DNA of 64,000 bases from an uncultured Thermodesulfobacteriaceae bacterium (GTDB taxonomy: Bacteria > Desulfobacterota > Dissulfuribacteria > Dissulfuribacterales > UBA3076): contig CAZYEJ010000002.1 of the NCBI GenBank assembly GCA_964646435.1, forward strand, positions 14,897 to 78,896. Direction: 5' to 3'. Positions 9,850-41,880 of this stretch are shown piece after piece. The notes below the pieces were generated by a model, which saw nothing but the letters and a program-made list of their open reading frames with translations, was not told the origin of the DNA and searched no databases. Each line of letters begins with the position of its first letter. Position 1 is the first letter of the stretch. Position numbers and translations under genes: made by a program.

Positions 9850-10575
9850 GTGTACGCCCGGCATAGGCGTGAACTTATGAGGTTAAAGTCCTCTGTACGT
9901 GAACCTTGCTGCCTGATTTTGAGGTTAGCAAAAGTACTAGCCGAAGGCAAGGGCGTCGCTGTGAGGCGGGGTTCGAAGGAAGCCGGAGTACAAAGCTGTG
10001 AGCCGACGAATAGAAATGTCATATAAGGCCGAGTCTCTGGGCAAGGGTCTTGAAAAAAATAAATTGGTGGAATTCGCGTCCAGATTTGCCATAGATTTAG
10101 TCGATCTGATTGAACAAAACCGCAGGCATAACAGTGTTATGTTGAGGATTTTGCGATTGAGGATCGATTAAAGATGTGGTGAAGATGGGATGCGAAAATG
10201 CCAAATTATTTTTTCCCAGGCCCTAAGGCAGCACAACATGTCTAAGCCCTGGATTCACAGGAGATACGGTAAATGGCGCGGATTGTTCACGTTCTTATCC
10301 AGGGAGACCTGTTTTCCATGCGGCATAATGTTGTTTCCAGTGAAACTACCGGCAGGGGCTACCGGTTCCCAAATGTCCCGGCACAGATGATGGAAAACTC
10401 TGCCTCATTTGTGAGATACGAAACAAAGATGAGCAGACAGGAAATGAATAGTGCAGCGTCATGCGAAGTAATTCGTGTGGTGTGAAAGCAGGAGTCAGCA
10501 GAGGCCATAGTAGCCCAACGCCGGGGGTAATGCCACGGACATGGTGAAGGGCCGAACATCAAGGAGAAAAAGAGG
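9850..10575 (+). mobile_element. 5' portion (domains I to about III/IV) of a group II intron, class C-like; no reverse-transcriptase ORF and no domain V/VI
   Basis: It starts 'GTGTACGCCCGGCATAGGCGTG' and contains 'TTCGAAGGAAGCCGGAGTACAAAGC', 'TCATATAAGGCCGAG' and 'GTGAAAGCAGGAGTCAGCAGAGGCCATAGTAGCCC'. From memory, these parallel the Oceanobacillus iheyensis IIC intron. A hairpin at 9814-9829 lies just upstream. The end coordinate is approximate. Confidence 0.55.
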
Positions 10576-13235: not shown

Positions 13236-13485
13236 GGTAATCTGGAGTATAAATGATTAATCTGTGCTAAGGAACGTACAATAAATAACTTGAACAAATT
13301 AATGTCTTTTTTGCCGTCTTCTTCGTTGCTCGTCGATCACATAACCCGTTATGCTCGCTCCTCGCGCCTTGAATACAACAAAAAATCCTGTTAATTTTTG
13401 TTCAACTTATTTCTCTCCCGTTCCTAAGTCAAAACATACCACAGCCGAACATGGGCAAAATGAGATTCCTCACGCACTGTGGATA

Positions 13486-19172: not shown

Positions 19173-20930
19173 ATGAGTTTTCCTTATAAAGATAAAAGAA
19201 TTTTGTTCCTTTTTGCCCTGGCAGGTCTTGTGATTATGGCCACATCGTTTGTTGGTTGCTTTTGGCAGAATAACAATGTCAATAGCGAAGACAACATTGA
19301 TTCGTCCAGGCTTTCTCAACAACGGAGCCATGACTACTATTCCCAGCAAAGCCCCCTGTGCAGGGGCGTAATTCTTGACAGGACAGGAGCGATATTCGCC
19401 GTAAGCCAAAAGACAACCTCTGCCTTAGCAAAACCTTCCAAGTTGCCGCAAGTTGATGATTGGGCACCACGGGTATCAGAAATCCTTGGCCTTGATCCTC
19501 ATGCTGTGACAAAACTGCTGTCGGAGAAACAAGACGTTATCTGTCTAAAAGAAGGCATTTCCTTAAAACAAGGTCTGAGGCTGAAAGACATGCGGCTTAA
19601 AGGAATAGAAATACAGGAAAAATATAAAAGGGTATATCCTTGCGGTCCACTGGCTTCTCCGGTTTTGGGGTTTGTCGATCACGGCGGCAGGGGCCTTGAG
19701 GGAATTGAATACACATATGACAGCCTTTTAAGCCACACTAATGTGTCACAAATTCACGCAGGTGGACAGGAACTTACGCTTACTCTTGGGAAAAATATTC
19801 AGTCATCAGCGGAAAAAGAGCTTGGCAGGCAGATGAAAAGACTTAAGGCAGATAAAGGCTGCCTTGTTATAATAAGTGTTGAAAATGGTGAGATCCTTGC
19901 CTTGGCCAGCAAGCCTTCCTGGGACCCGGAACGTTTTTGGGAACTACCTGCAGCAAACATTACAAATTACTCCCTACAAGATAATGTTGACCCGGTGGTC
20001 CTTGTGCCTCTCTTAAACTGGATGTTTGAACAAAGTGAGCTTCCAAAATCAGAAGATCAGCCTTTGAACAAAATGGAACATAAGTGGAAATGGGAAACTT
20101 TGGATAAAGGTCTGGTCCTATGGAGTCCCTGGACTGAACAGGAACTGAAAGATTTTGTCTCTTATGACGACCGGTCAAAAGACCTCTTGGCTCTGGGATT
20201 TGGTCAGTCTACAGGTATTGACCTTCCGGGTGAAGGCCAGGGCAGCCTGTCTTCAGCCCTGCCAAGGTCACAGAATTGCTTCTTATGCCAAGGTATCGCA
20301 GCCAGTCCGATCCAGATTCTAAGGGCCTTCTCCGCCCTGATAAATGAGAATATATTGGTGACACCACACGTGGCCCTACAAAGTCCTAATGAATTCCTGA
20401 CATCCGAGTCTTCCGTGAAGGATCAAAGACAGGCCAAAATCCCATGGTTAACAGAAGAGCTTATACTTAAATTGCGGAAAAACCTCGCGGTCAGGGGAGG
20501 GCCTTCTCTTGCGAGCATCAGGTGGAATGAACAGTCTGAGCAAATATCCACTCAATTTCCAGCCCAGGTCACTGTCCTTGGATTCTGGCCCGACAAATCA
20601 CCTAAAGTCAGTTATATTGTTTTGCTCGACGGCGTAAAAATTGATCCTCGTGAACGCCGGGGCACTTTAGGGCGAACACTAATAGTAGCAAAACAGGCGG
20701 CACAGGTACCCTTGAAAGACAAATGGCGAACGGTGAAAAGCCAAGAGACCAAAAAAGAACTCTCCAGGATGCCGAATCTTAAGGGAAAATCCATAAGACA
20801 GGCCTTTGATATTCTGCAATCCATAGGCATTTCCACCAAGCTCAAAGGTGTAGGGAGTGTGATCGCACAGAAACCAAGATCAGGAACGCCTCTTAAGGGT
20901 GTGAAGGTCTGCAGTATAACCTGCAAATGA
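19173..20930 (+). CDS. ftsI: Class B penicillin-binding-protein homologue in the FtsI position, with C-terminal PASTA; catalytic motifs absent
   Basis: 585 aa. The pedestal motifs are conserved: 'RGVILDRTGAIFAVS', 'RVYPCGPLASPVLGFV' and 'GLEGIEYTYDSLL'. So are 'GEILALASKPSWDP', 'CQGIAASPIQILRAFSAL' and the PASTA tail. No SxxK, SxN or KTG is found at the aligned positions. Confidence 0.8.
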   Translation: MSFPYKDKRILFLFALAGLVIMATSFVGCFWQNNNVNSEDNIDSSRLSQQRSHDYYSQQSPLCRGVILDRTGAIFAVSQKTTSALAKPSKLPQVDDWAPRVSEILGLDPHAVTKLLSEKQDVICLKEGISLKQGLRLKDMRLKGIEIQEKYKRVYPCGPLASPVLGFVDHGGRGLEGIEYTYDSLLSHTNVSQIHAGGQELTLTLGKNIQSSAEKELGRQMKRLKADKGCLVIISVENGEILALASKPSWDPERFWELPAANITNYSLQDNVDPVVLVPLLNWMFEQSELPKSEDQPLNKMEHKWKWETLDKGLVLWSPWTEQELKDFVSYDDRSKDLLALGFGQSTGIDLPGEGQGSLSSALPRSQNCFLCQGIAASPIQILRAFSALINENILVTPHVALQSPNEFLTSESSVKDQRQAKIPWLTEELILKLRKNLAVRGGPSLASIRWNEQSEQISTQFPAQVTVLGFWPDKSPKVSYIVLLDGVKIDPRERRGTLGRTLIVAKQAAQVPLKDKWRTVKSQETKKELSRMPNLKGKSIRQAFDILQSIGISTKLKGVGSVIAQKPRSGTPLKGVKVCSITCK

Positions 20931-23900
20931 TGTTTGGTAATACACGGCACGAAAGGACATTGCGGGATATGTTAGAAGTGCTGAGACCTGCTGTTTCTAT
21001 ATCACCTGAGTTGGATGACGTAAAAATCAAGGGCATATCCGCAGACTCCAGACAGGTAAAGCAGGGATACATATTTGTGGCAATTCCCGGCACGGAATTT
21101 GATGGAAGACAATTTATCAATGATGCCGTGGAGAAAGGAGCCTCTGCCCTGTTAATGCCAAGCCAAGATGTCCATCGTTACATCAAGACCGTTCCTGGAG
21201 CACTTCCTGTTATGGGAGTGGATGACCCCAGGTTTTCAACCGGTCTTCTGGCAAGTGCCTTTTATGGAAATCCCAGTGAAAAAATGGCCCTCATAGCCAT
21301 TACAGGCACTAATGGTAAGACTACGATCACATATCTTCTGGAAGGCATTTTCAGCAAAGCCGGGCTGAATCCTGGTGTAATCGGGACTGTAAACCAGAGA
21401 CATTGTGGTAAGGAGGTACCTTCTGAGCTCACTACCCCAGGTGCCATAAAACTACAGGAGATTCTGGCCGACATGTCGGAGCAAGGGGCAAAGGCAGTGG
21501 CCTTAGAGGTATCTTCCCACGCCCTTGACCAGCAGAGGATCTCAGGATGCAGTTTCGCAGCGTCTGTTTTTACCAATCTGGGCCGCGATCACCTGGATTA
21601 CCATCAAGACATGGACCAATACTTCCACGCCAAGGTAAAATTGTTTTTGGACTACCCATCTGATACTGCAATCATCAACATTGACGACTTGTATGGAAGG
21701 CGTCTGTGGAAAATAGTGCAAAGAAAAAAAATCAGTTATGGTCTCAGTCCTGAGGCCGATGTAAGACCTGAGTTCCAGTCAATCAATATTGATGGAATAA
21801 CAGGTAAACTTACCACGCCCAAAGGACCTGTCTCCATAAAATCCAGGCTTATAGGTCTGCACAACCTATACAATATCCTTGCAGCAGTGGCGGCTTCAAT
21901 CACCCTTGGGATAGATCCCGACTATATTCAGACCGGCATAGAAACAATAACGCGTATCCCGGGAAGGCTCGATCCTGTGCATACCCCACGGGGAGTGACC
22001 GCCTTTGTAGACTATGCCCATACACCTGACGCCCTTGAAAGTGTCCTGAACTGCCTTATCAGATTAGGGTCCAAGCCTCTGATCTGCGTAATCGGCTGTG
22101 GAGGAGACAGAGACAGGGGCAAGCGTCCTCTCATGGCGCAGGCAGCTGCTTCACTGGCAGATATTGTTGTGCTGACCTCGGATAATCCACGTACTGAAGA
22201 CCCTCTTGCCATACTCGATCAGATGTTGAACGGCCTCAGAGACCTTCCTCCCCATCACCCTGCAACTAAAGCTGAAGTGGAGGTAATTCCAGACAGAAGG
22301 GATGCTATTTTATGGGCAGCAGAACAAGTGAGGCCTGGTGCCTGTCTGCTCGTGGCAGGGAAGGGCCATGAAACCTACCAGATAATCGGCAACAAACGAC
22401 TTGCCTTTGATGACATGGAAATACTGAAAGAGGCATTTGGGGCAGAAGTCAGAGGTCAGAAGTCAGAGGTCAGAGGTCAGAGGTCGGAGTATAAGAGTAA
22501 TAGGTCGAAGTCAGAGAGTCTTGAGGATCAGGGACTTCGATTAAAGGCTTCTCAGGTGGCAAGGGCTATTGGAGCCAGAGTCCTTTCGGGTGATCCGGAT
22601 ACGGCAATCCATGGCATATCAACAGATTCCAGATCAGTAAGAAAAGGAAATATATTCTGGGCACTTTCAGGGGATCGTTTCAATGGCCATAATTTTGTCC
22701 TTGATGCTATAAAAAAAGGGGCCATCGGCGCGGTAGTCAGCTCGACCTTTGACTTTCGAGCTTTGACTTTAAGCCCTCGATCCTGTCCTATCCTGTTGCA
22801 AGTCCAGGATTCGTTAAAGGCCCTGGGAGATTTTGCAGCATGGTATAGGGAATACCTTGGAATCAAGGTGGTTGGCATTACGGGCAGTTGCGGCAAGACC
22901 ACTACAAAAGAACTAATTTTCTCAATCCTGGGGGAAAAATGGAAAGTGGCTAAAACCCCTGGGAATTTTAACAATCTTATCGGACTCCCGCTCAGCCTGC
23001 TTTCGGCCAAATCCGATGATGCATGGGCAGTGCTGGAAATGGGAACAAACCAACCGGGAGAAATACCCAGGCTGTGTGAAATTGCCAAGCCACAAGTGGG
23101 CCTTATTACTACCATACAGCCTGCCCACCTTGTCGGCCTGGGGGACATAAAGCAAGTAGCCAGAGAAAAGTGGGAACTCTGGAGAGCCCTTCCCCAAACA
23201 GGTGTGGCAGTGGTGAACCTTGACGATCCCTTGGTGATGGAAGGGGCCAAAGATCTAACGTGTCAAATAGTGGGCTATTCTCTGACACCTAATCCCCAAT
23301 TCAAAATTCAAAATTCAAAATTCAAAATTGCAATTACCTGCCTGTCCTGGACCCCGAGCGGGCATGGCACTCTGCTGGATCTGGATATTGACGGAAGCAG
23401 ACTCTCTGTTAATCTTTCACTTATAGGAAGGGCAAACGTGCAAAATGCCATTGCAGCCGCAGCTACAGGCCATGCAGTGGGGTTGACGCCGGCCCGGATC
23501 AAGCAAGGGCTGGAGGAAGTAAAACCAATTTCAGGCCGCCTTTTTCTAAAAAATCTTGGACCTGAATGGAGGCTGATAGACGATTCTTATAATGCAAACC
23601 CCGGCTCTATGAGAGCGGCTCTTGAGACTCTCAATCTTTGGGGTAAAGGCGAAAAAAAGATAGCGATCCTGGGAGACATGCTGGAACTCGGAGATGCGGC
23701 CTACGACTTCCATCATGACATTGGACGACTTACAGCCGATACAGGAGTTGATTTTCTGATCTTCGTAGGCGAATTTGCGGATGCTGTTTCCGAAACCGCC
23801 CAAAAGGCCGGTATTTCGCAAAAGGCTATTCGCATCTTCCCCAACACGGAGGATTTGCTTTCCTGGATAGAACCAGCCGCCCTTGACTGCATGCCCTCTC

Positions 23901-23986
23901 CGGCAACCGTACTGGTAAAGGGATCGCGGGCCATAGGCCTTGATAGAGCAGTAGATGCCCTTATCAGGCATCTGGGAGAAGGATAG
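20927..23986 (+). CDS. murE/murF: Fused MurE (meso-DAP-adding ligase) / MurF (D-Ala-D-Ala-adding ligase)
   Basis: One 1019-aa ORF. The MurE part has 'ITGTNGKTT' and 'DNPRTEDP' and ends at about '[10 protein letters not shown]'. The MurF part runs from about '[15 protein letters not shown]' and has '[12 protein letters not shown]'. There is no stop or obvious start between them. Confidence 0.85.
22443..22520 (+). repeat. Tandem heptamer array (GTCAGAG-like, about 11 units) encoding the MurE-MurF linker
   Basis: 'cagaa gtcagag gtcagaa gtcagag gtcagag gtcagag gtcggag tataaga gtaatag gtcgaag tcagaga' translates to '[24 protein letters not shown]'. Confidence 0.85.
23297..23331 (+). repeat. Tandem heptamer array (ATTCAAA x about 4.5) inside murF
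   Basis: 'caattcaaaattcaaaattcaaaattcaaaattgcaa' translates to '[13 protein letters not shown]'. Confidence 0.85.
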
Positions 23987-25071: not shown

Positions 25072-25099
25072 GGAAAGAATTTGGTGATTTGGTAATTGA

Positions 25100-26521
25100 A
25101 TGGAACTGAAGGGCAAAAAAGTAACAATACTGGGCATGGGGATATCCGGCCGGGCGGTTGCCGGATGGATCGTCTCTCAAGGGACACAAGTCATATGCAG
25201 TGATTTGAATCCCCTGAATAAGTGGCCTAAGGGCCTGGCAGGCTGGTGTGATAAAAATGGCGTTGGAGTGGAGACAAAAAAACATAAGGTAGAGACTTGC
25301 CTTTCATCCGACCTGATAGTGGTCAGCCCTGGTGTTCCGCCTGAAATTCCTGCCCTTGAGGCAGCACGCAGATCCAATATCCCTGTGGTTGGAGAACTGG
25401 CCCTTGCGGCATCCTTCTGGAGAGGACCTCTAATCGGCATAACCGGCACAAATGGAAAAACTACTACTACTATGCTTGTGGATGAGATGCTAAAAAAGGC
25501 CAATGTGCCTCATGTAAGGGCAGGGAACATTGGAACACCATTATCCGCGCTCGTTGAAGAACATACCGAGGAAACTATCGCGGTTTTAGAGATTAGCAGC
25601 TTCCAGTTGGATTATTTCCCAAGGACCAGGTATTTTCCTTTTACTCCTCCAAGGTTCAGGACAACAGCATGGCTCAATTTTGCGCCGGACCACCTTGATC
25701 GCTACCAGGACATCAAGAGCTATGGAGAGAGCAAGGCAGTAATCTATGACTTCCAAAGGCCTGAAGATTGGGCCATTCGCAACATGGACGACAAGGGACT
25801 AGAAACGTGGAAGGACAAAGGACGTGCCAGAAGGCTCTACTTCGGGATATGGCACCCCGGAGTTCCCGGAGCCTGGCTGGATACCTCTTTAAAAAAAATC
25901 AAAGTCATGTGGCCTGACAATAAATGGGAGGAATATGACTTAGAAAGCTGGTCCCCAAAGGGTCGACATAATATTGAAAACCTGGCTTGTGCCATACTTA
26001 TTTCACGCCTGGCAGGTGCTGGTGCGGCTGCAGTACAGTCTGTTATCCAAAACTTCAAAGCGGCACATCACAGACTTCAGTGGGTGGCCCAAAATGCGGG
26101 CATCGACTATTATGACGACTCCAAGGCCACCAATGTTGCATCTGTACTTCGCGCAATGGAGTCCATAGATCAGCCAATAGTGCTCATCGTGGGCGGCCGC
26201 GGCAAGGGTGAAGATTATGCTTCCCTGGCCGAGGCCACAAAAAAGGTGCGTATTCGTGGTGCGATTGTTATAGGCGAAGAGGCCAAGGCGTTTGAAAAAA
26301 TCCTAAATAAGGTAATGCCGGTTATCCAGGTGCGTGGAACAAAAAACGGCAAAAAGATTATGAGAAAAGCCGTAATGGAAGCAACGTCCCTGGCTGAGCC
26401 CGGTGATGCCATACTCCTTTCCCCTGCCTGTTCCAGCTTTGATATGTTCAAGAACTATGAAGAACGTGGCATGGCATTTCAGGAGGCAACCAGGGAATTG
26501 GGTGATTGGGTAATTGGGTGA
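25100..26521 (+). CDS. murD: UDP-N-acetylmuramoylalanine--D-glutamate ligase
   Basis: 473 aa with 'ILGMGISGRAVA', '[12 protein letters not shown]' and 'DDSKATN'. Confidence 0.95.
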   Translation: MELKGKKVTILGMGISGRAVAGWIVSQGTQVICSDLNPLNKWPKGLAGWCDKNGVGVETKKHKVETCLSSDLIVVSPGVPPEIPALEAARRSNIPVVGELALAASFWRGPLIGITGTNGKTTTTMLVDEMLKKANVPHVRAGNIGTPLSALVEEHTEETIAVLEISSFQLDYFPRTRYFPFTPPRFRTTAWLNFAPDHLDRYQDIKSYGESKAVIYDFQRPEDWAIRNMDDKGLETWKDKGRARRLYFGIWHPGVPGAWLDTSLKKIKVMWPDNKWEEYDLESWSPKGRHNIENLACAILISRLAGAGAAAVQSVIQNFKAAHHRLQWVAQNAGIDYYDDSKATNVASVLRAMESIDQPIVLIVGGRGKGEDYASLAEATKKVRIRGAIVIGEEAKAFEKILNKVMPVIQVRGTKNGKKIMRKAVMEATSLAEPGDAILLSPACSSFDMFKNYEERGMAFQEATRELGDWVIG

Positions 26522-26533
26522 TTGGGTAATTTT
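26497..26533 (-). repeat. Tandem octamer array (GGTRATTG, the inverse of CAATYACC) spanning the murD 3' end and stop codon
   Basis: 'gaattg ggtgattg ggtaattg ggtgattg ggtaatt'. It encodes 'ELGDWVIG*', so the TGA lies inside a repeat unit. A related 'atttggtgatttggtaattgaatgg' at 25078-25102 contains the murD ATG. Confidence 0.85.
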
Positions 26534-26569
26534 AAGAATGGAATTTTAATTTGAAAATGCAGGCAGATT

Positions 26570-27796
26570 GTGAACTTAATTATGAGTCACGAAATATATA
26601 AACACAAAACAATCACCAAATCACCAAACCACCAAATCACCAGATTAGTGGTGGCTGGTGGTGGCACAGGCGGACACGTGTTCCCCGGAATTGCCGTAGT
26701 TGAGGCCATGGAGTCCCATGGCCGTATAGATGTTATGTGGATAGGCACAGGCCGCCCGGTGGAAAAAAATGCACTTTCAGGACGTAAATGGGATTACCGA
26801 ATTCTCAACACAAGGCCTCTCAGGGGCTCAGGCATTGCAGCAACCATGCGTTCTCTGGCTGGACTTCCTTTCTCCACGATCAGGGCTTGTTCGTGGCTTA
26901 AATCATTCAGGCCTCATGTGGTACTGGGTGTTGGGGGATATGTCTCCGGACCTGCACTTCTTGCAGCGCGAATGTTGCGGATACCTGCCGCCCTCCATGA
27001 GCAGAACCTTATCCCAGGGCTCACAAATCGTTTGGCCTCCAGATTCGCAAAGACAGTGTTTGTGAGTTTTAAAGAAACTGCTAAATACTTTCCCAAAAAC
27101 AGGGTAATTTTTACTGGAAATCCCATACGGAAAAATATTATTCAATCACTCAATCACCAAATCACCAAATCACCAAATCACTCAATCACCAAATCATTCA
27201 ATCTTCTGGTCCTGGGAGGCAGTCAGGGTGCCAGATGCCTGAACAGGCTTGCCGGTTCGGCCATACAGGTTTTGTGGCAATCCGGTTTTCATTTGAAAAT
27301 TATTCACCAAACAGGCAAGCTGGATGAGTCACATGTTGAGAAATTTTATAAGGATGCAAGCATTCCGGCCAAAGTGACCCCATTTATCTCTAACATTGGT
27401 GAATCCTATTCCTGGGCAGACTTGGTTATCTGCCGGGCCGGAGCAGGTACTCTGTCTGAGCTCACAACCTTGGGGAAACCATCGATCCTCATTCCCTATC
27501 CCTGGGCAACGGACAGCCATCAGGATGCCAACGCCAGAGAATTGACTGAAGCCGGGGCTGCCAAATACTTCCTGGAAGAAGAAATCGGTGCTATAAAACT
27601 GGCGGGAGAGATACAGTCTTTGCTGGAGGATCCCCAGCAACTCATCAATATGGGAAAAAATGCTCAAAAACTTGGAAAACCCACGGCAGCTACAGAGATA
27701 GCCTCTACACTGATAGAGATAGCCGGACATACTTTTCCATATTCTGAAACAGAAACTAATTCATTGAAAGGTTCTACAGTACGTAACCATGTATAA
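26570..27796 (+). CDS. murG: Undecaprenyldiphospho-muramoylpentapeptide beta-N-acetylglucosaminyltransferase
   Basis: 408 aa with 'GGGTGGHVFPGIAV', 'VLGGSQGA' and 'RAGAGTLSELT'. The exact start is uncertain (26570 GTG or 26582 ATG). Confidence 0.9.
   Translation: MNLIMSHEIYKHKTITKSPNHQITRLVVAGGGTGGHVFPGIAVVEAMESHGRIDVMWIGTGRPVEKNALSGRKWDYRILNTRPLRGSGIAATMRSLAGLPFSTIRACSWLKSFRPHVVLGVGGYVSGPALLAARMLRIPAALHEQNLIPGLTNRLASRFAKTVFVSFKETAKYFPKNRVIFTGNPIRKNIIQSLNHQITKSPNHSITKSFNLLVLGGSQGARCLNRLAGSAIQVLWQSGFHLKIIHQTGKLDESHVEKFYKDASIPAKVTPFISNIGESYSWADLVICRAGAGTLSELTTLGKPSILIPYPWATDSHQDANARELTEAGAAKYFLEEEIGAIKLAGEIQSLLEDPQQLINMGKNAQKLGKPTAATEIASTLIEIAGHTFPYSETETNSLKGSTVRNHV
26609..26643 (+). repeat. 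Tandem octamer array (AAATCACC x about 4) in the murG 5' coding region
   Basis: 'caatcacc aaatcacc aaaccacc aaatcacc ag' translates to 'ITKSPNHQIT', immediately before the GGGTGGH motif. Confidence 0.85.
27142..27210 (+). repeat. Tandem octamer array ([AC]AATCAC[CT] x about 8) in the murG interdomain linker
   Basis: 'caatcact caatcacc aaatcacc aaatcacc aaatcact caatcacc aaatcatt caatctt' translates to 'QSLNHQITKSPNHSITKSFN', between 'GNPIRKN' and 'LLVLGGSQGA'. Confidence 0.85.
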
Positions 27797-29183: not shown

Positions 29184-30075
29184 GGATCTGGAAAGGATAG
29201 GAGATCTCCAGGTGCGCAAGAATGTTCCGCTTTTACCGCTAACAAGCTTTCGTATAGGCGGGCCTGCGCATCTATTCCTGGTTCCAAGGACCTTGAAGGC
29301 CCTTGAACAGACCATTTGTTATCTCAGTAATCGTTCCATATCCTATAAAGTGCTGGGCCGGGGAAGCAACCTGTTGATCAACGATAAAGGCGTGAAGATA
29401 GTCATGACCCTGACAGCCCTGAATCGCATCCACTGCCCTCCCGACCATCCCTTTAAAACAGTGTCTGTAGAGGCGGGATGCAGGCTGAACTCCCTTATTT
29501 CCTGGTCCATACGATACGGCCTGTGTGGTCTTGAGAATCTTTCGGGCATTCCGGCCAGTATAGGTGGGGCCATATCCATGAACGCCGGCACTAACAAGTG
29601 CTCCATGGCAGAAGCGATAGATGCAGTACAATTTACAGGCCCGAACGGGAGTTGCTGGTTTCGGAGAGATCAATTGCAATTTGATTACAGGTCTTTCAGA
29701 CTGCCAGACAAGGCCCTTATCTCCGCCGCAAGAATTCAACTTGGCAAAAGTAGCCCTGATCAGATCAGATGCAATGTCAGAAACGTGATGTACAAACGGA
29801 GGACCACCCAGCCTATAGGAAAACCAAGCGTAGGGTGCATTTTTAGAAATCCACAGGGAGATTCAGCAGGAAAACTCATAGACCAATGTGGACTCAAAGG
29901 TCTTAGAATCGGGGATGCCGAGGTATCCAAAAAGCATGCGAATTTTATTGTAAACCGTGGAAAAGCCAGTGCCATACAGGTAATGGACTTGCTGGAAATC
30001 ATTAGAGGGCGTGTAAAAAAAGAGGCTGATGTAGAACTTGTCCCGGAAGTATCCATTTGGGGTATGGAAACATGA
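29173..30075 (+). CDS. murB: UDP-N-acetylenolpyruvoylglucosamine reductase
   Basis: 300 aa with 'FRIGGPA', 'LGRGSNLLI' and 'SVGCIFRNP'. Confidence 0.9.
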   Translation: MLSKDLERIGDLQVRKNVPLLPLTSFRIGGPAHLFLVPRTLKALEQTICYLSNRSISYKVLGRGSNLLINDKGVKIVMTLTALNRIHCPPDHPFKTVSVEAGCRLNSLISWSIRYGLCGLENLSGIPASIGGAISMNAGTNKCSMAEAIDAVQFTGPNGSCWFRRDQLQFDYRSFRLPDKALISAARIQLGKSSPDQIRCNVRNVMYKRRTTQPIGKPSVGCIFRNPQGDSAGKLIDQCGLKGLRIGDAEVSKKHANFIVNRGKASAIQVMDLLEIIRGRVKKEADVELVPEVSIWGMET

Positions 30076-30917
30076 AAGTCAGAAGGCCGTCTTCAGAATT
30101 TAGGTCTTCAGTACGTAGCTCCGGCTCGCGGAATAAGTCTGCTAAACCGATGTTTTCAGTATCGTGGCTTATCAATTCTAAAATATTGGTTGGCATAGCC
30201 GTAACGTGCATTGTGCTTGTAGGATTTTTTATGTGTCGGCATTGGGCATGTCAATCTGATCTTTTCAGGGTTTGTCAGGTTCTGGTGAAAGGCTGCGATC
30301 GCGTCACGGAAGAGGAGGTTTTGCAACTGAGCAATGTGACCGCCCAGGACAATCTTTTATCTCTCGATCTGAAATCAATTGCAGCGTCCATAGAGGCGCA
30401 TCCCTGGGTCCATACGGTTAAAGTTAAAAAAAAATTGCCGGATCATCTAATGATTACGATCAAAGAACGTACTCCGGTAGCCCTGTTGAATTCTGACAAA
30501 ATGTATTTGATTGATAAACAAGGTAAAATTATCGATGAACTTTCAACAAAAGACCCAGTCTCTCTTCCCATCATTACCGGGTTTGATCCTAAAAACATAA
30601 AAAATAATCAAATCACCAAATCACCAAATCACCAAATCCAAAAAGTCCTGGAATTAATATCCATGGCAAGCAAAGGCACAAGAACTCTGGGTGTAAACAA
30701 TATTAGCCAAATAGACGCAGCTAAAAAAGATACACTAATACTCTATACATCTGACAGCGGTATTCCTTTTTACTTTGATACTAAAAATCTCAGCACCCAG
30801 TTCAGTGAGGCGGAAAAAATCCTGTATCAACTCTATCGCTCAGGAACATATAAAAAAGTTGCTAAGGTTGATTTGGATTACGGCCCCGGCCAGGCCCTGG
30901 TCAGTCTGAAACATTAG
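30057..30917 (+). CDS. ftsQ: Cell division protein FtsQ (POTRA-containing)
   Basis: 286 aa with a basic N-terminus, one TM, a POTRA-like 'VCQVLVKGCDRVTEEEVL..' and 'HPWVHTVKVKKKLPDHLMITIKER'. It sits in the dcw position. Confidence 0.8.
   Translation: MGYGNMKVRRPSSEFRSSVRSSGSRNKSAKPMFSVSWLINSKILVGIAVTCIVLVGFFMCRHWACQSDLFRVCQVLVKGCDRVTEEEVLQLSNVTAQDNLLSLDLKSIAASIEAHPWVHTVKVKKKLPDHLMITIKERTPVALLNSDKMYLIDKQGKIIDELSTKDPVSLPIITGFDPKNIKNNQITKSPNHQIQKVLELISMASKGTRTLGVNNISQIDAAKKDTLILYTSDSGIPFYFDTKNLSTQFSEAEKILYQLYRSGTYKKVAKVDLDYGPGQALVSLKH
30604..30640 (+). repeat. Tandem octamer array (AAATCACC x about 4) inside ftsQ
   Basis: 'ataatc aaatcacc aaatcacc aaatcacc aaatcca' translates to 'NNQITKSPNHQIQ'. 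Confidence 0.85.
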
Positions 30918-35135: not shown

Positions 35136-35297
35136 GTAACAGTTCATGGGGTTACAACGCCCGTTTTACTGCAAGCCACCGAATTGTAAGCGTTTACAGG
35201 GTGCTGCAGATGCGAGGCGGAGAGTACGCAGACGTACTTCCTGTACTTCAAGTGCCCGACAACAAAGCAGATGCAATGCCCTGTAAACGCTTACTAT
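35136..35297 (+). repeat. Repeat family C copy 1 (about 160 bp, with a 16-bp terminal stem)
   Basis: It aligns to 41718-41880. 'gtaagcgtttacaggg' (35186-35201) pairs with 'ccctgtaaacgcttac' (35279-35294). There is an inner hairpin, 'agtacg-caga-cgtact'. Confidence 0.8.
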
Positions 35298-35301
35298 TTC
35301 A

Positions 35302-41717: not shown

Positions 41718-41880
41718 TATAACCGTTCACGGAATTGCAACGCCCGTCTTACCGCACCCGCCGAACTATAAGCGTTTACAGGGTGCTGCAGATGCGAGGC
41801 GGAGGGTACGCAGACGTACTCCCTGTACTTCAAGTGCCCGACAACAAAGCAGATGCGGTGCCCTGTGAACGCTTAGCTTA
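41718..41880 (+). repeat. Repeat family C copy 2
   Basis: It has the same 107-nt core as 35189-35295, with about five substitutions by my alignment. The flanks are more diverged. Confidence 0.8.

What the first reader, a model, noticed from the sequence alone, without database searches (positions are those of the whole stretch)
30604..30640. The same AAATCACC octamer array is read in frame inside ftsQ
'aaatcaccaaatcaccaaatcacc' yields 'NNQITKSPNHQIQ'. This is the same peptide period as in MurG, inserted after 'PIITGFDPKNIK' in the periplasmic part of FtsQ. Two unrelated essential proteins in one operon share a repeat-derived peptide. This points to a repeat-insertion process that tolerates or targets coding loops, conceptually like Rickettsia palindromic elements that insert in frame in ORFs.
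Basis: partly seen in the sequence, partly recalled or inferred. Interest (0 to 1): 0.6.

Follow-up and report, generated by a model that had tools for sequence, protein, structure and literature searches.

The report
In-frame octamer microsatellite inside ftsQ
A short DNA stutter, (AAATCACC)n, lies inside the cell-division gene ftsQ and several neighbouring essential genes of an uncultured sulfate-reducer and is translated as a harmless loop peptide; it is a slippage-prone simple repeat that survives only in frame-preserving steps of three units, not a mobile insertion.

Summary
Window 30609-30638 is a perfect 3.8-copy AAATCACC array inside ftsQ, read as NNQITKSPNHQIQ. The same unit occurs twice in murG. 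It also occurs, reverse-complemented, at the murD stop codon and in the mraY-murD spacer.

It is a dispersed 7-8-nt simple-sequence-repeat family, not an RPE-like element. Flanks are not conserved, there is no palindrome, and the arrays sit at the same sites in all relatives examined.

The shared peptide is arithmetic. Eight is coprime to three and this strand has no stop codon, so every frame gives cyclic KSPNHQIT. The other strand has TGA in every frame.

Clean copy-number differences inside genes are 24 nt, that is three units. Examples are FtsQ at 281 versus 273 aa and a MurG that is 98% identical (BLASTP) but 8 aa longer. Other length differences are still multiples of 3 nt. Lineages carry their own homogenised unit variants, and deeper branches carry decayed arrays of equal length. 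This fits slippage plus purifying selection.

In related Seep-SRB2-like MAG fragments, 26 of 56 arrays lie in frame inside unrelated housekeeping proteins, mostly at loops and linkers.

The closest known cases are prokaryotic long SSRs such as the TAACTGA and GGGAATC heptamers. Why one unit recurs at many loci is unexplained.

The parts
30609..30638 (+). (AAATCACC)n array in ftsQ, 3.8 perfect copies, read as NQITKSPNHQI (FtsQ residues about 183-195 counted from the TTG at 30057)
   Evidence: The AlphaFold2 model places it in a surface loop plus the first turn of helix 191-204; the 181-190 block has pLDDT 77 against about 90 around it.
30057..30917 (+). ftsQ ORF. The likely start is ATG 30072, which gives the 281-aa product identical to database protein P0001.
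   Evidence: Pfam POTRA_1 and FtsQ_DivIB_C; homologues
26611..26642 (+). Octamer array (4 units, 91% matches) encoding the MurG N-terminal extension KTITKSPNHQITR
   Evidence: The relative L033 has 7 units here, which is +24 nt.
27144..27203 (+). Octamer array (about 7 units, AATCACCA/AATCACTC) encoding the MurG interdomain linker between GNPIR and LLVLGGSQG
   Evidence: Orthologue linker lengths are 48, 54, 63, 72 and 96 nt. P0093, 98% identical by BLASTP, has +8 aa here.
26570..27796 (+). murG ORF (likely start ATG 26582)
   Evidence: Pfam Glyco_transf_28 and Glyco_tran_28_C; alignment A2
26496..26531 (-). Related array in reverse orientation (AATTGGGTGATTGGGT x2.2, reverse complement of AATCACCC/AATTACCC) at the 3' end of murD. 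It encodes the last residues ELGDWVIG and supplies the TGA stop at 26519-26521.
   Evidence: L033 has a longer GGTGATTT/AGTGATTT array at the same place.
25078..25097 (-). Remnant array (AATTTGGT x2.5, reverse orientation) in the mraY-murD spacer, just upstream of the murD ATG at 25100
   Evidence: L033 has (ATTTAGTG)x5 or more here.
23298..23329 (+). Heptamer array (AATTCAA x4.6) in frame in the MurF part of the murE-murF fusion, at the site where relatives carry (AAATCACC)x2-5
22443..22516 (+). Heptamer array (CAGAGGT x6.7 plus degenerate copies) in frame, forming the linker between the MurE and MurF halves ([16 protein letters not shown]...)
   Evidence: The outgroup linker is 21 aa shorter.

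Best explanation
The ftsQ array is one locus of a lineage-wide family of short tandem repeats with 7-8-nt units (a long simple sequence repeat). It is embedded in frame in a permissive periplasmic loop at the junction of the FtsQ POTRA and beta domains. Shown: (1) AAATCACC has no stop codon in any phase on this strand, and 8 is coprime to 3. Any array is therefore translated as the cyclic octapeptide KSPNHQIT whatever the entry frame, and 24 nt (three units) is the smallest copy-number step that keeps the frame. The opposite strand has TGA in all three frames per 24 nt, so inside genes only the sense orientation can exist. Reverse-oriented arrays lie at gene ends or between genes. (2) Alleles differing only in copy number differ by exactly 24 nt. 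(3) Arrays stay at the same site across the clade, each lineage has its own homogenised unit variant, and deeper branches have equal-length decayed versions. Inferred: units are gained and lost by replication slippage or unequal exchange. Purifying selection on essential genes removes every change that is not a multiple of 3 nt, and every array outside loops, linkers and termini. The encoded peptide is a tolerated passenger rather than a selected module.
For: Perfect nucleotide identity between units, including synonymous positions. FtsQ homologues fall into 281-aa (..NIKNHQITKSPNHQIQK..) and 273-aa (..NIKNHQIQK..) forms, which at DNA level is 60 against 36 nt. Other 24-nt steps: murG N-terminus, 4 against 7 units; murG linker, window against L033 and window against the 98%-identical P0093; murF site, 80 against 56 nt. 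Every linker length seen (48, 54, 63, 72, 96 nt) is a multiple of 3. Concerted evolution: AAATCAAC x3 in L122 ftsQ, AAATTACC x4 in the L122 murG linker, AAATCACA in L121, GAATCACA in L118. Decayed arrays of unchanged length in L118, L119 and L123. No conserved flanks and no palindrome or structure; the arrays are unpaired in folds, and the murG linker folds worse than 194 of 200 shuffles. No Rfam family. The model places the peptide in a loop with a local confidence dip. In Seep-SRB2-like fragments, 26 of 56 arrays are in frame inside long ORFs. For most of those scanned the Pfam coordinates place the array at a domain junction or as extra residues within a domain: PheT between tRNA_bind and B3_4, ProS just before the editing domain, multihaem cytochrome between haem domains, and as extra residues in LeuS, GpsA, FolK and a CCA/poly(A) polymerase. 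Published surveys describe 5-11-nt SSR families, heptamers most abundant, and attribute them to polymerase slippage (Mrazek 2007, as summarised in PMC4679880).
Against: Slippage explains change at a locus, not why the same unit sits at many loci. Isolated AAATCACC is not enriched, so there is no obvious excess of seeds. Five arrays of the family lie within 5.6 kb of a 64-kb window, and multi-array clusters recur in other fragments; slippage does not predict this. Different units occupy one orthologous site: AATTCAA against AAATCACC in murF, and CGCAACC beside AAATCACC at the L117 murG start. In the MurG linker the array of L118 and L123 has exactly the length (48 nt) of the non-repetitive outgroup sequence, so it looks like overwriting rather than insertion. 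No read-level data were available to show ongoing slippage or out-of-frame minority alleles.
Confidence: 0.8

Rival explanations
1. A mobile or insertion-type element: a selfish sequence comparable to Rickettsia palindromic elements that inserts in frame into ORFs.
For: The same sequence occurs in many unrelated genes and between genes. There is an 8-aa presence/absence difference among close FtsQ relatives. Different repeat units occupy the same site in murF.
Against: Information content in the 30 nt on either side of 117 arrays is about zero, apart from the partial next unit. There are no inverted repeats or hairpin. Length varies by whole units. The site is conserved across the clade, with decayed copies in deeper branches, which indicates vertical inheritance. 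The 8-aa gap equals exactly three units. More distant orthologues have a loop as long as the long allele.
Confidence: 0.04
2. The arrays are selected functional modules. At the RNA level they would be a G-less, unstructured leader or standby site for ribosomes or an RNA-binding protein. At the protein level they would be flexible spacers whose length is tuned in 8-aa steps.
For: There is a strong orientation bias: the G-less strand is the mRNA sense strand. Arrays with only a sense ORF opening right after them outnumber the mirror case 13:2 in Seep-like fragments and 18:3 in other phyla. In other phyla, 11 of 31 such arrays end within about 0-11 nt of an ATG that opens the long ORF. In Seep-like fragments several follow the ATG directly (ATGCAATCACC...). 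The arrays are predicted to be unpaired. The geometry matches TAACTGA repeats (PMC4679880) and GGGAATC repeats (PMC4692102). Loop length is conserved at 60 nt in ftsQ even where the array has decayed.
Against: The ftsQ and murG-linker arrays are far from any start codon. The peptide changes freely with unit variants (KSTNQQIN, KLPNYQIT, KSQNHKIT) and a short allele exists, so the peptide is not conserved. Part of the orientation bias inside genes is forced by the stop codons on the other strand. No expression data are available.
Confidence: 0.12
3. Phase-variation switch (contingency locus): a unit whose length is not a multiple of three, placed in a gene so that gain or loss of one unit turns the gene off and on.
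For: An 8-nt unit shifts the frame with each single-unit change. Copy number does vary between near-identical strains.
Against: The hosts are essential single-copy housekeeping genes (ftsQ, murG, murF, aminoacyl-tRNA synthetases), not surface or restriction genes. None of the roughly 50 FtsQ and 36 MurG homologues inspected shows an out-of-frame allele. The shortened database entries are N-terminally shortened gene calls or stop within or before the repeat on short contigs, and none shows a shifted reading frame.
Confidence: 0.03
4. A dedicated or homology-guided seeding process adds to slippage. Existing arrays would copy themselves by template switching or gene conversion onto nearby sequence that already resembles the unit, or a sequence-specific enzyme would favour this motif.
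For: Arrays cluster: 5 within 5.6 kb here, and 3-5 per 8-kb fragment in L033, L036, L047 and L112. Outgroup orthologues without an array carry unit-like sequence at the same spots: CAGTCACC in the L120 murG linker and AATCCCCAATCAATCC in L120 ftsQ. The MurG linker shows equal-length overwriting. Several genomes of other phyla each hold multiple arrays of this same unit.
Against: The unit-like outgroup sequences could equally be decayed arrays. No enzyme or donor was identified. The cross-phylum recurrence may be expected by chance, because these genomes carry many different 7-8-nt units.
Confidence: 0.15

Closest known systems
Long simple sequence repeats (LSSR) with 5-11-nt units in prokaryotic genomes (Mrazek et al. 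2007, as summarised in PMC4679880)
   Same: These are tandem direct repeats of a short unit, far longer than chance allows. Period 7-8 dominates, they occur in sporadic lineages, and they are attributed to polymerase slippage. Here 9 of 9 strong arrays in the window and 190 of 252 in all fragments have period 7 or 8.
   Different: That survey found that units whose length is a multiple of three are the ones most likely to lie in coding regions. Here an 8-nt unit sits in frame inside many essential genes (26 of 56 arrays in Seep-SRB2-like fragments).
TAACTGA heptamer direct repeats of marine Beggiatoaceae, cyanobacteria and some Bacteroidetes (MacGregor 2015, PMC4679880)
   Same: One unit is dispersed over many loci and several phyla, mostly just upstream of start codons in a fixed orientation. 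One strand has stops in all frames and the other is open. A few copies lie inside ORFs at protein peripheries, including a MurG terminus.
   Different: The unit there is 7 nt and its forward strand carries the stops. Intragenic copies are rare and peripheral. Here the unit is 8 nt, the mRNA-sense strand is the open one, and arrays lie deep inside proteins.
G-rich heptamer repeats GGGAATC (Xanthomonas) and GGGGA(C/T)T (Nostoc STRR-type) (Rehm et al. 2015, PMC4692102)
   Same: They are genome-wide 7-nt arrays, modal size about four units. The G-rich strand lies on the non-coding strand within 50 bp upstream of ORFs, so the G-poor strand is sense. The AAATCACC arrays show the same geometry.
   Different: [quoted passage not shown] GGTGATTT has only GG runs, and no quadruplex test was done here.
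Rickettsia palindromic elements (RPE; Ogata et al. 2000, from my own knowledge, not re-read here)
   Same: Repeated DNA is found in frame inside unrelated, often essential, proteins at surface-exposed positions without destroying function.
   Different: RPEs are elements of roughly 100-150 bp with conserved full-length sequence and a palindromic, hairpin-forming structure. The arrays here are 24-96 bp of 8-nt tandem units, unstructured, without defined ends, and they vary by unit number.
Phase-variable contingency loci (for example tetranucleotide repeats in Haemophilus and Neisseria)
   Same: A tandem repeat with a unit length not divisible by three lies inside a reading frame and is prone to slippage.
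   Different: Contingency loci sit in dispensable surface or restriction genes and are found in both on and off frames. Here the hosts are essential and only in-frame alleles are seen.

Membership tests
Long simple sequence repeat (prokaryotic SSR with 5-11-nt unit) | Head-to-tail direct repeats of one short unit | tested here: met
   TRF: period 8, 3.8 copies, 100% matches at 30609-30638. Further arrays at 26611, 27144, 26496 and 25078.
Long simple sequence repeat (prokaryotic SSR with 5-11-nt unit) | Longer or more frequent than composition predicts | tested here: met
   9 arrays with score >= 50 against 0.1 in 30 dinucleotide shuffles. The octamer occurs 11 times against 3.2 expected, with 0 of 100 shuffles reaching 11.
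Long simple sequence repeat (prokaryotic SSR with 5-11-nt unit) | Copy-number polymorphism between related genomes | tested here: met
   Window against L033, L117 and P0093: differences of 3 units at four coding sites, and free variation in the mraY-murD spacer.
Dispersed heptamer repeat families (STRR / TAACTGA / GGGAATC type) | The same unit at many loci of a genome, shared by relatives | tested here: met
   Multiple contigs per MAG carry the exact 23-mer, for example 8 fragments of MAG069 and 5 of B4_G9.
Dispersed heptamer repeat families (STRR / TAACTGA / GGGAATC type) | Unit of seven nucleotides | tested here: not met
   The unit is 8 nt. Heptamer arrays (CAGAGGT, AATTCAA) coexist in the same operon.
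Dispersed heptamer repeat families (STRR / TAACTGA / GGGAATC type) | Mainly intergenic, close to start codons, fixed orientation | tested here: inconclusive
   Met in other phyla: 4 of 61 arrays internal, 31 with a sense ORF opening after the array, 11 within about 11 nt of the ATG. Not met in Seep-like fragments, where 26 of 56 are internal. ORFs were called mechanically, not annotated.
Rickettsia palindromic element-like in-frame mobile element | Conserved full-length element with defined ends | tested here: not met
   Flank information content is about 0 bits beyond the partial next unit.
Rickettsia palindromic element-like in-frame mobile element | Palindromic sequence forming a stable hairpin | tested here: not met
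   The arrays are unpaired in minimum-energy folds. The murG linker has z = +1.6. No inverted repeat involves the array.
Rickettsia palindromic element-like in-frame mobile element | In-frame presence inside unrelated proteins | tested here: met
   FtsQ, MurG, MurF, PheT, LeuS, ProS, GpsA, FolK, cytochrome c and others.
Phase-variable contingency locus | Alleles in both in-frame and out-of-frame states among strains | tested here: not met
   All FtsQ and MurG homologues inspected are in frame. Short entries are N-terminally shortened gene calls or stop within or before the repeat on short contigs. Minority alleles in reads could not be examined.
Phase-variable contingency locus | Host gene dispensable (surface, restriction or similar) | tested here: not met
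   The hosts are dcw-cluster genes and aminoacyl-tRNA synthetases.
Selected protein tandem repeat | Peptide conserved while the DNA of the units diverges at synonymous sites | tested here: not met
   Units are identical at the DNA level, and the peptide changes with lineage-specific unit variants.

The most novel reading that the evidence does not exclude
The octamer arrays may be more than passive stutter. They could be G-less, unstructured translation-leader modules, oriented with the mRNA and abutting start codons in several phyla. A unit-specific or homology-guided process would seed them. Once captured in a reading frame they would become linkers, lengthen interdomain spacers in 8-aa steps, and perhaps weld neighbouring genes together. 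Array-bearing junctions are seen in MurE-MurF, in a Mur-ligase-type protein joined to Tgt, and in a TP_methylase protein joined to a cytidylyltransferase.
Probability: 0.15. Interest if true: 0.7.

Novelty: new member of a known kind. Interest (0 to 1): 0.4.

Why it matters
Essential genes are normally expected to avoid frameshift-prone repeats. In this lineage, the likely Seep-SRB2 syntrophic partners of methane-oxidising archaea, an 8-nt repeat persists in ftsQ, murG, murF and several aminoacyl-tRNA synthetases across considerable divergence. This gives a natural experiment on three things: which protein positions tolerate arbitrary 8-aa insertions, how repeat turnover and selection interact, and how linkers, and perhaps gene fusions, lengthen. 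In practice the arrays are strain-level markers. They also cause assembly breaks and start-site or frameshift errors in MAG annotation. For the finding as written, the main result is deflationary: the shared peptide follows from arithmetic, and the mechanism is ordinary repeat slippage filtered by selection.

Tried and rejected
1. A protein-database search with five copies of KSPNHQIT returned only 34-70-aa spurious ORFs that translate intergenic arrays. It was useless as a proteome census.
2. A viral-contig scan for the 23-mer gave a single hit. The planned control scans with composition-matched units would therefore have been uninformative and were dropped.
3. A full-text search for the octamer strings found only primer and vector matches. 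'Seep-SRB2' together with 'tandem repeat' found nothing.
4. Rfam at gathering thresholds found no family on any array.
5. The shortened FtsQ database entries were inspected as possible frameshift alleles. They are N-terminally shortened gene calls or stop within or before the repeat on short contigs.
6. The RPE-like reading was rejected because the arrays lack conserved ends and palindromy.
7. Successive 8-nt units pass through all three codon phases.
8. A link to the 16S rRNA 3' tail, which contains AUCACC, was considered and left as a post-hoc coincidence without a test.

Full report
**What is there.** Window 30609-30638 is a perfect 3.8-copy tandem array of an octamer (AAATCACC, or CAAATCAC in TRF's register).
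- It lies inside ORF 30057-30917 (+), which translates to ...LPIITGFDPKNIKNNQITKSPNHQIQKVLELIS.... The ORF matches Pfam POTRA_1 and FtsQ_DivIB_C.
- The surrounding genes form a dcw cluster: ftsI, a murE-murF fusion, mraY, murD, murG, murC, murB, ftsQ, ftsA and ftsZ.
- The same unit forms two arrays in murG, one in the N-terminal extension (26611-26642) and one in the interdomain linker (27144-27203).
- In reverse orientation it forms the last codons and the TGA stop of murD (26496-26531), and a remnant in the mraY-murD spacer (25078-25097).
- Two heptamer arrays are also read in frame in murE-murF (22443-22516 and 23298-23329).

**Chance is excluded.**
- The octamer occurs 11 times against 3.2 expected.
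- The window has nine strong tandem arrays, all of period 7 or 8 or multiples of these, against 0.1 per dinucleotide shuffle.
- Isolated copies of the octamer are not enriched, so the signal is tandem repetition and not a scattered motif.

**Why two unrelated proteins share a peptide.**
- On this strand the unit has no stop codon in any phase.
- Because 8 and 3 share no factor, three units (24 nt) pass through all three codon phases. Every reading frame therefore yields the same cyclic octapeptide KSPNHQIT.
- On the opposite strand (GGTGATTT) a TGA falls in each frame once per 24 nt.
- An array can thus lie inside a gene only in the sense orientation. In the other orientation it can only end a gene or lie between genes, which is the arrangement seen in this operon.
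- This follows directly from the sequence. It makes the shared peptide period, and any sorting by frame, uninformative.

**Where the window comes from.**
- The closest fragments are about 92-93% identical in DNA. One is L033, a Thermodesulfobacteriota MAG. The other is L022, labelled 'archaeon' but carrying the bacterial dcw genes, so probably misbinned.
- Several other array-bearing fragments from the scan are labelled Seep-SRB2.
- The nearest named MurG sequences are from Dissulfurimicrobium, Dissulfurirhabdus and Dissulfuribacter, at about 50% identity.

**Comparison with relatives.** I aligned the syntenic dcw clusters of nine relatives.
- ftsQ: the loop is 60 nt in most. It is 36 nt in L117 and in the other 273-aa FtsQ proteins, exactly three units shorter.
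- murG N-terminus: the window has 4 units and L033 has 7.
- murG linker: the window has 72 nt and L033 has 96. A MurG that is 98% identical by BLASTP (P0093) is 8 aa longer in the linker.
- murF site: L022 has 80 nt and L117 has 56.
- So clean copy-number changes inside genes are all 24 nt, and every other length seen (48, 54, 63 nt) is still a multiple of three. In the mraY-murD spacer the length varies freely.
- Each lineage has its own unit variant copied along the whole array: AAATCAAC in L122 ftsQ, AAATTACC in the L122 murG linker, AAATCACA in L121, and GAATCACA in L118.
- Deeper branches (L118, L119, L123) have arrays of unchanged length that have decayed by point mutation.
- This is the usual life cycle of a microsatellite: expansion and contraction, homogenisation, interruption and decay. 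It is here played out at fixed sites inside genes.

**Is it an insertion?** Only partly.
- The 8-aa gap appears only against short-allele relatives.
- More distant orthologues (P0034, P0037, P0040) have a non-repetitive loop (..KDLKQGRGQSIQ..) about as long as the long allele.
- In MurG the outgroup linker (48 nt, QSPLHQRGKSIH) has the same length as the four-unit arrays of L118 and L123. It even reads like the repeat peptide.
- Either the arrays are old and the outgroup holds their ruins, or arrays arose from, or overwrote, sequence that already resembled the unit. I could not decide between these.

**Position in the protein.**
- An AlphaFold2 model from 28 homologues has mean pLDDT 82.
- It places residues 183-190 in a loop after strand 172-174, and residues 191-195 (NHQIQ) at the start of helix 191-204. 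Confidence dips locally to 77.
- NHQIQ is the part kept in the short allele.

**Not an RPE-like element.**
- Across 117 arrays the 30 nt on either side carry no conserved sequence beyond the partial next unit.
- The arrays are unpaired in predicted folds. The murG linker folds worse than 194 of 200 shuffles. No inverted repeat involves the ftsQ array.
- Rfam has nothing there.

**The wider family.**
- About 40 stretches are from Seep-SRB2-like MAGs, several fragments per genome.
- The rest are from Saprospiraceae, Chitinophagaceae, Bacteroidales, Acidobacteriota, Planctomycetota and others.
- In all these fragments, tandem arrays with TRF score >= 50 are nearly all of period 7 or 8 and have many different units.
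- These genomes therefore have a general tendency towards 7-8-nt repeats. The recurrence of one unit across phyla may need no special explanation, but I could not run control units.

**Context of the arrays (mechanical ORFs).**
- In Seep-like fragments, 26 of 56 arrays are in frame inside long ORFs and 19 have a sense ORF opening right after them.
- In other phyla only 4 of 61 are internal and 31 precede a sense ORF. Eleven of those 31 end within about 0-11 nt of the ATG.
- Arrays with only a sense ORF downstream outnumber the mirror orientation 13:2 and 18:3.
- Hosts of internal arrays include PheT, LeuS, ProS, an Ile/Val-type synthetase, GpsA, FolK, a multihaem cytochrome, a YhdP-like protein and a CCA/poly(A) polymerase.
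- For most of these the Pfam coordinates place the array at a domain junction or as extra residues within a domain.
- The Seep-like grouping rests on record titles and sequence similarity, not on a phylogeny.

**Relation to the literature.**
- Mrazek and co-workers described long SSRs with 5-11-nt units in scattered prokaryotes. Heptamers were the most abundant, and slippage was proposed as the cause. Units whose length is a multiple of three were the ones most likely to lie in coding regions (summarised in PMC4679880).
- MacGregor described TAACTGA repeats shared by Beggiatoaceae, cyanobacteria and Bacteroidetes. They lie mostly just upstream of start codons, with a few inside ORFs at protein peripheries, including a MurG terminus.
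- Rehm and co-workers described GGGAATC-type heptamers whose G-rich strand lies on the non-coding strand just upstream of ORFs. [quoted passage not shown]
- The AAATCACC family fits this kind. It differs in unit length and in how often it lies deep inside essential genes.
- I found no paper mentioning it.

**Verdict.**
The peptide is repeat-derived and tolerated in loops of unrelated essential proteins. The process is repeat slippage filtered by selection, not in-frame insertion of an element.
- Four things remain unexplained: why the same unit is at so many loci, why the arrays cluster, why different units replace one another at the same site, and why the G-less strand so consistently matches the mRNA at gene starts.

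Noticed in passing
window 35136-35298 and 41720-41875; also L016, L025, L030, L059, L067, L082, L083, L091, L107, L108: An intergenic dispersed element of about 160 bp with perfect terminal inverted repeats (TAAGCGTTTACAGGG ... CCCTGTAAACGCTTA). The copies are 86-94% identical to stretches in many Seep-SRB2-like fragments. This palindromic element, comparable to a MITE or REP sequence, is the feature in this genome that most resembles an RPE, but both window copies are intergenic.
   Followed up: partly
window 13268-13427: A different repeat of about 160 bp, 98-99% identical to stretches in L025 and L030. It did not align with the palindromic element above.
   Followed up: no
window 20927-23986: murE and murF are fused into one 1019-aa ORF in the window and in all seven fully syntenic relatives fetched. 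The junction linker is built from a heptamer array (CAGAGGT) in the window and is 14-21 aa shorter in L118, L123 and the outgroup L120.
   Followed up: partly
window 25100-27796 (murD directly followed by murG): No ftsW gene lies between murD and murG, its usual place in dcw clusters. The same gap is seen in the eight relatives that cover this interval (L033, L117-L123). I did not check whether ftsW lies elsewhere.
   Followed up: no
L047:2-2032 (-) and L074:5099-6886 (+): Two stop-free ORFs join products that usually come from separate genes, with an AAATCACC array exactly at the junction. One joins a Mur-ligase-type protein to Tgt. The other joins a TP_methylase protein to a CTP_transf_3 cytidylyltransferase. 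Sense-oriented arrays have no stop codon, so they may help neighbouring genes fuse. Alternatively these are assembly frame errors.
   Followed up: partly
L002, L011, L013, L024, L043, L048, L061, L088, L089, L099, L102 (array ends): In Bacteroidota, Acidobacteriota and other phyla the same octamer arrays, in mRNA-sense orientation, end 0-11 nt before an ATG that opens a long ORF. This is the position where a ribosome-binding leader would lie.
   Followed up: partly
L056 and L112 (ATGCAATCACC...), L079, L071; L036 and L054: In Seep-like fragments several arrays begin directly after a start codon. Two lie in what reads like a prepilin leader peptide (...GFTLLELLIS).
   Followed up: no
L117 6529-6600 (murG start): A different heptamer array (CGCAACC x4, read as ATRNPQPATRN) sits where other lineages have the octamer array. 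As at the murF site, the repeat unit at a fixed position can be replaced.
   Followed up: partly
window 26622-26660: The last units of the murG N-terminal array are predicted to pair with the downstream GGUGGUGGCUGGUG, the codons of the glycine-rich loop. The hairpin has -16.3 kcal/mol and z = -3.8, and it lies near the 5' end of murG.
   Followed up: no
window 9955-10552: Rfam matches to group II intron domains (group-II-D1D4-3 and D1D4-1) on the + strand.
   Followed up: no
L022 (JAIWFS010000004.1, 'archaeon isolate JL_RS_05_5'): This contig is 93% identical to the window's bacterial dcw cluster, so the 'archaeon' MAG is probably contaminated with Seep-SRB2-like contigs. Four more of its contigs carry the array.
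   Followed up: no
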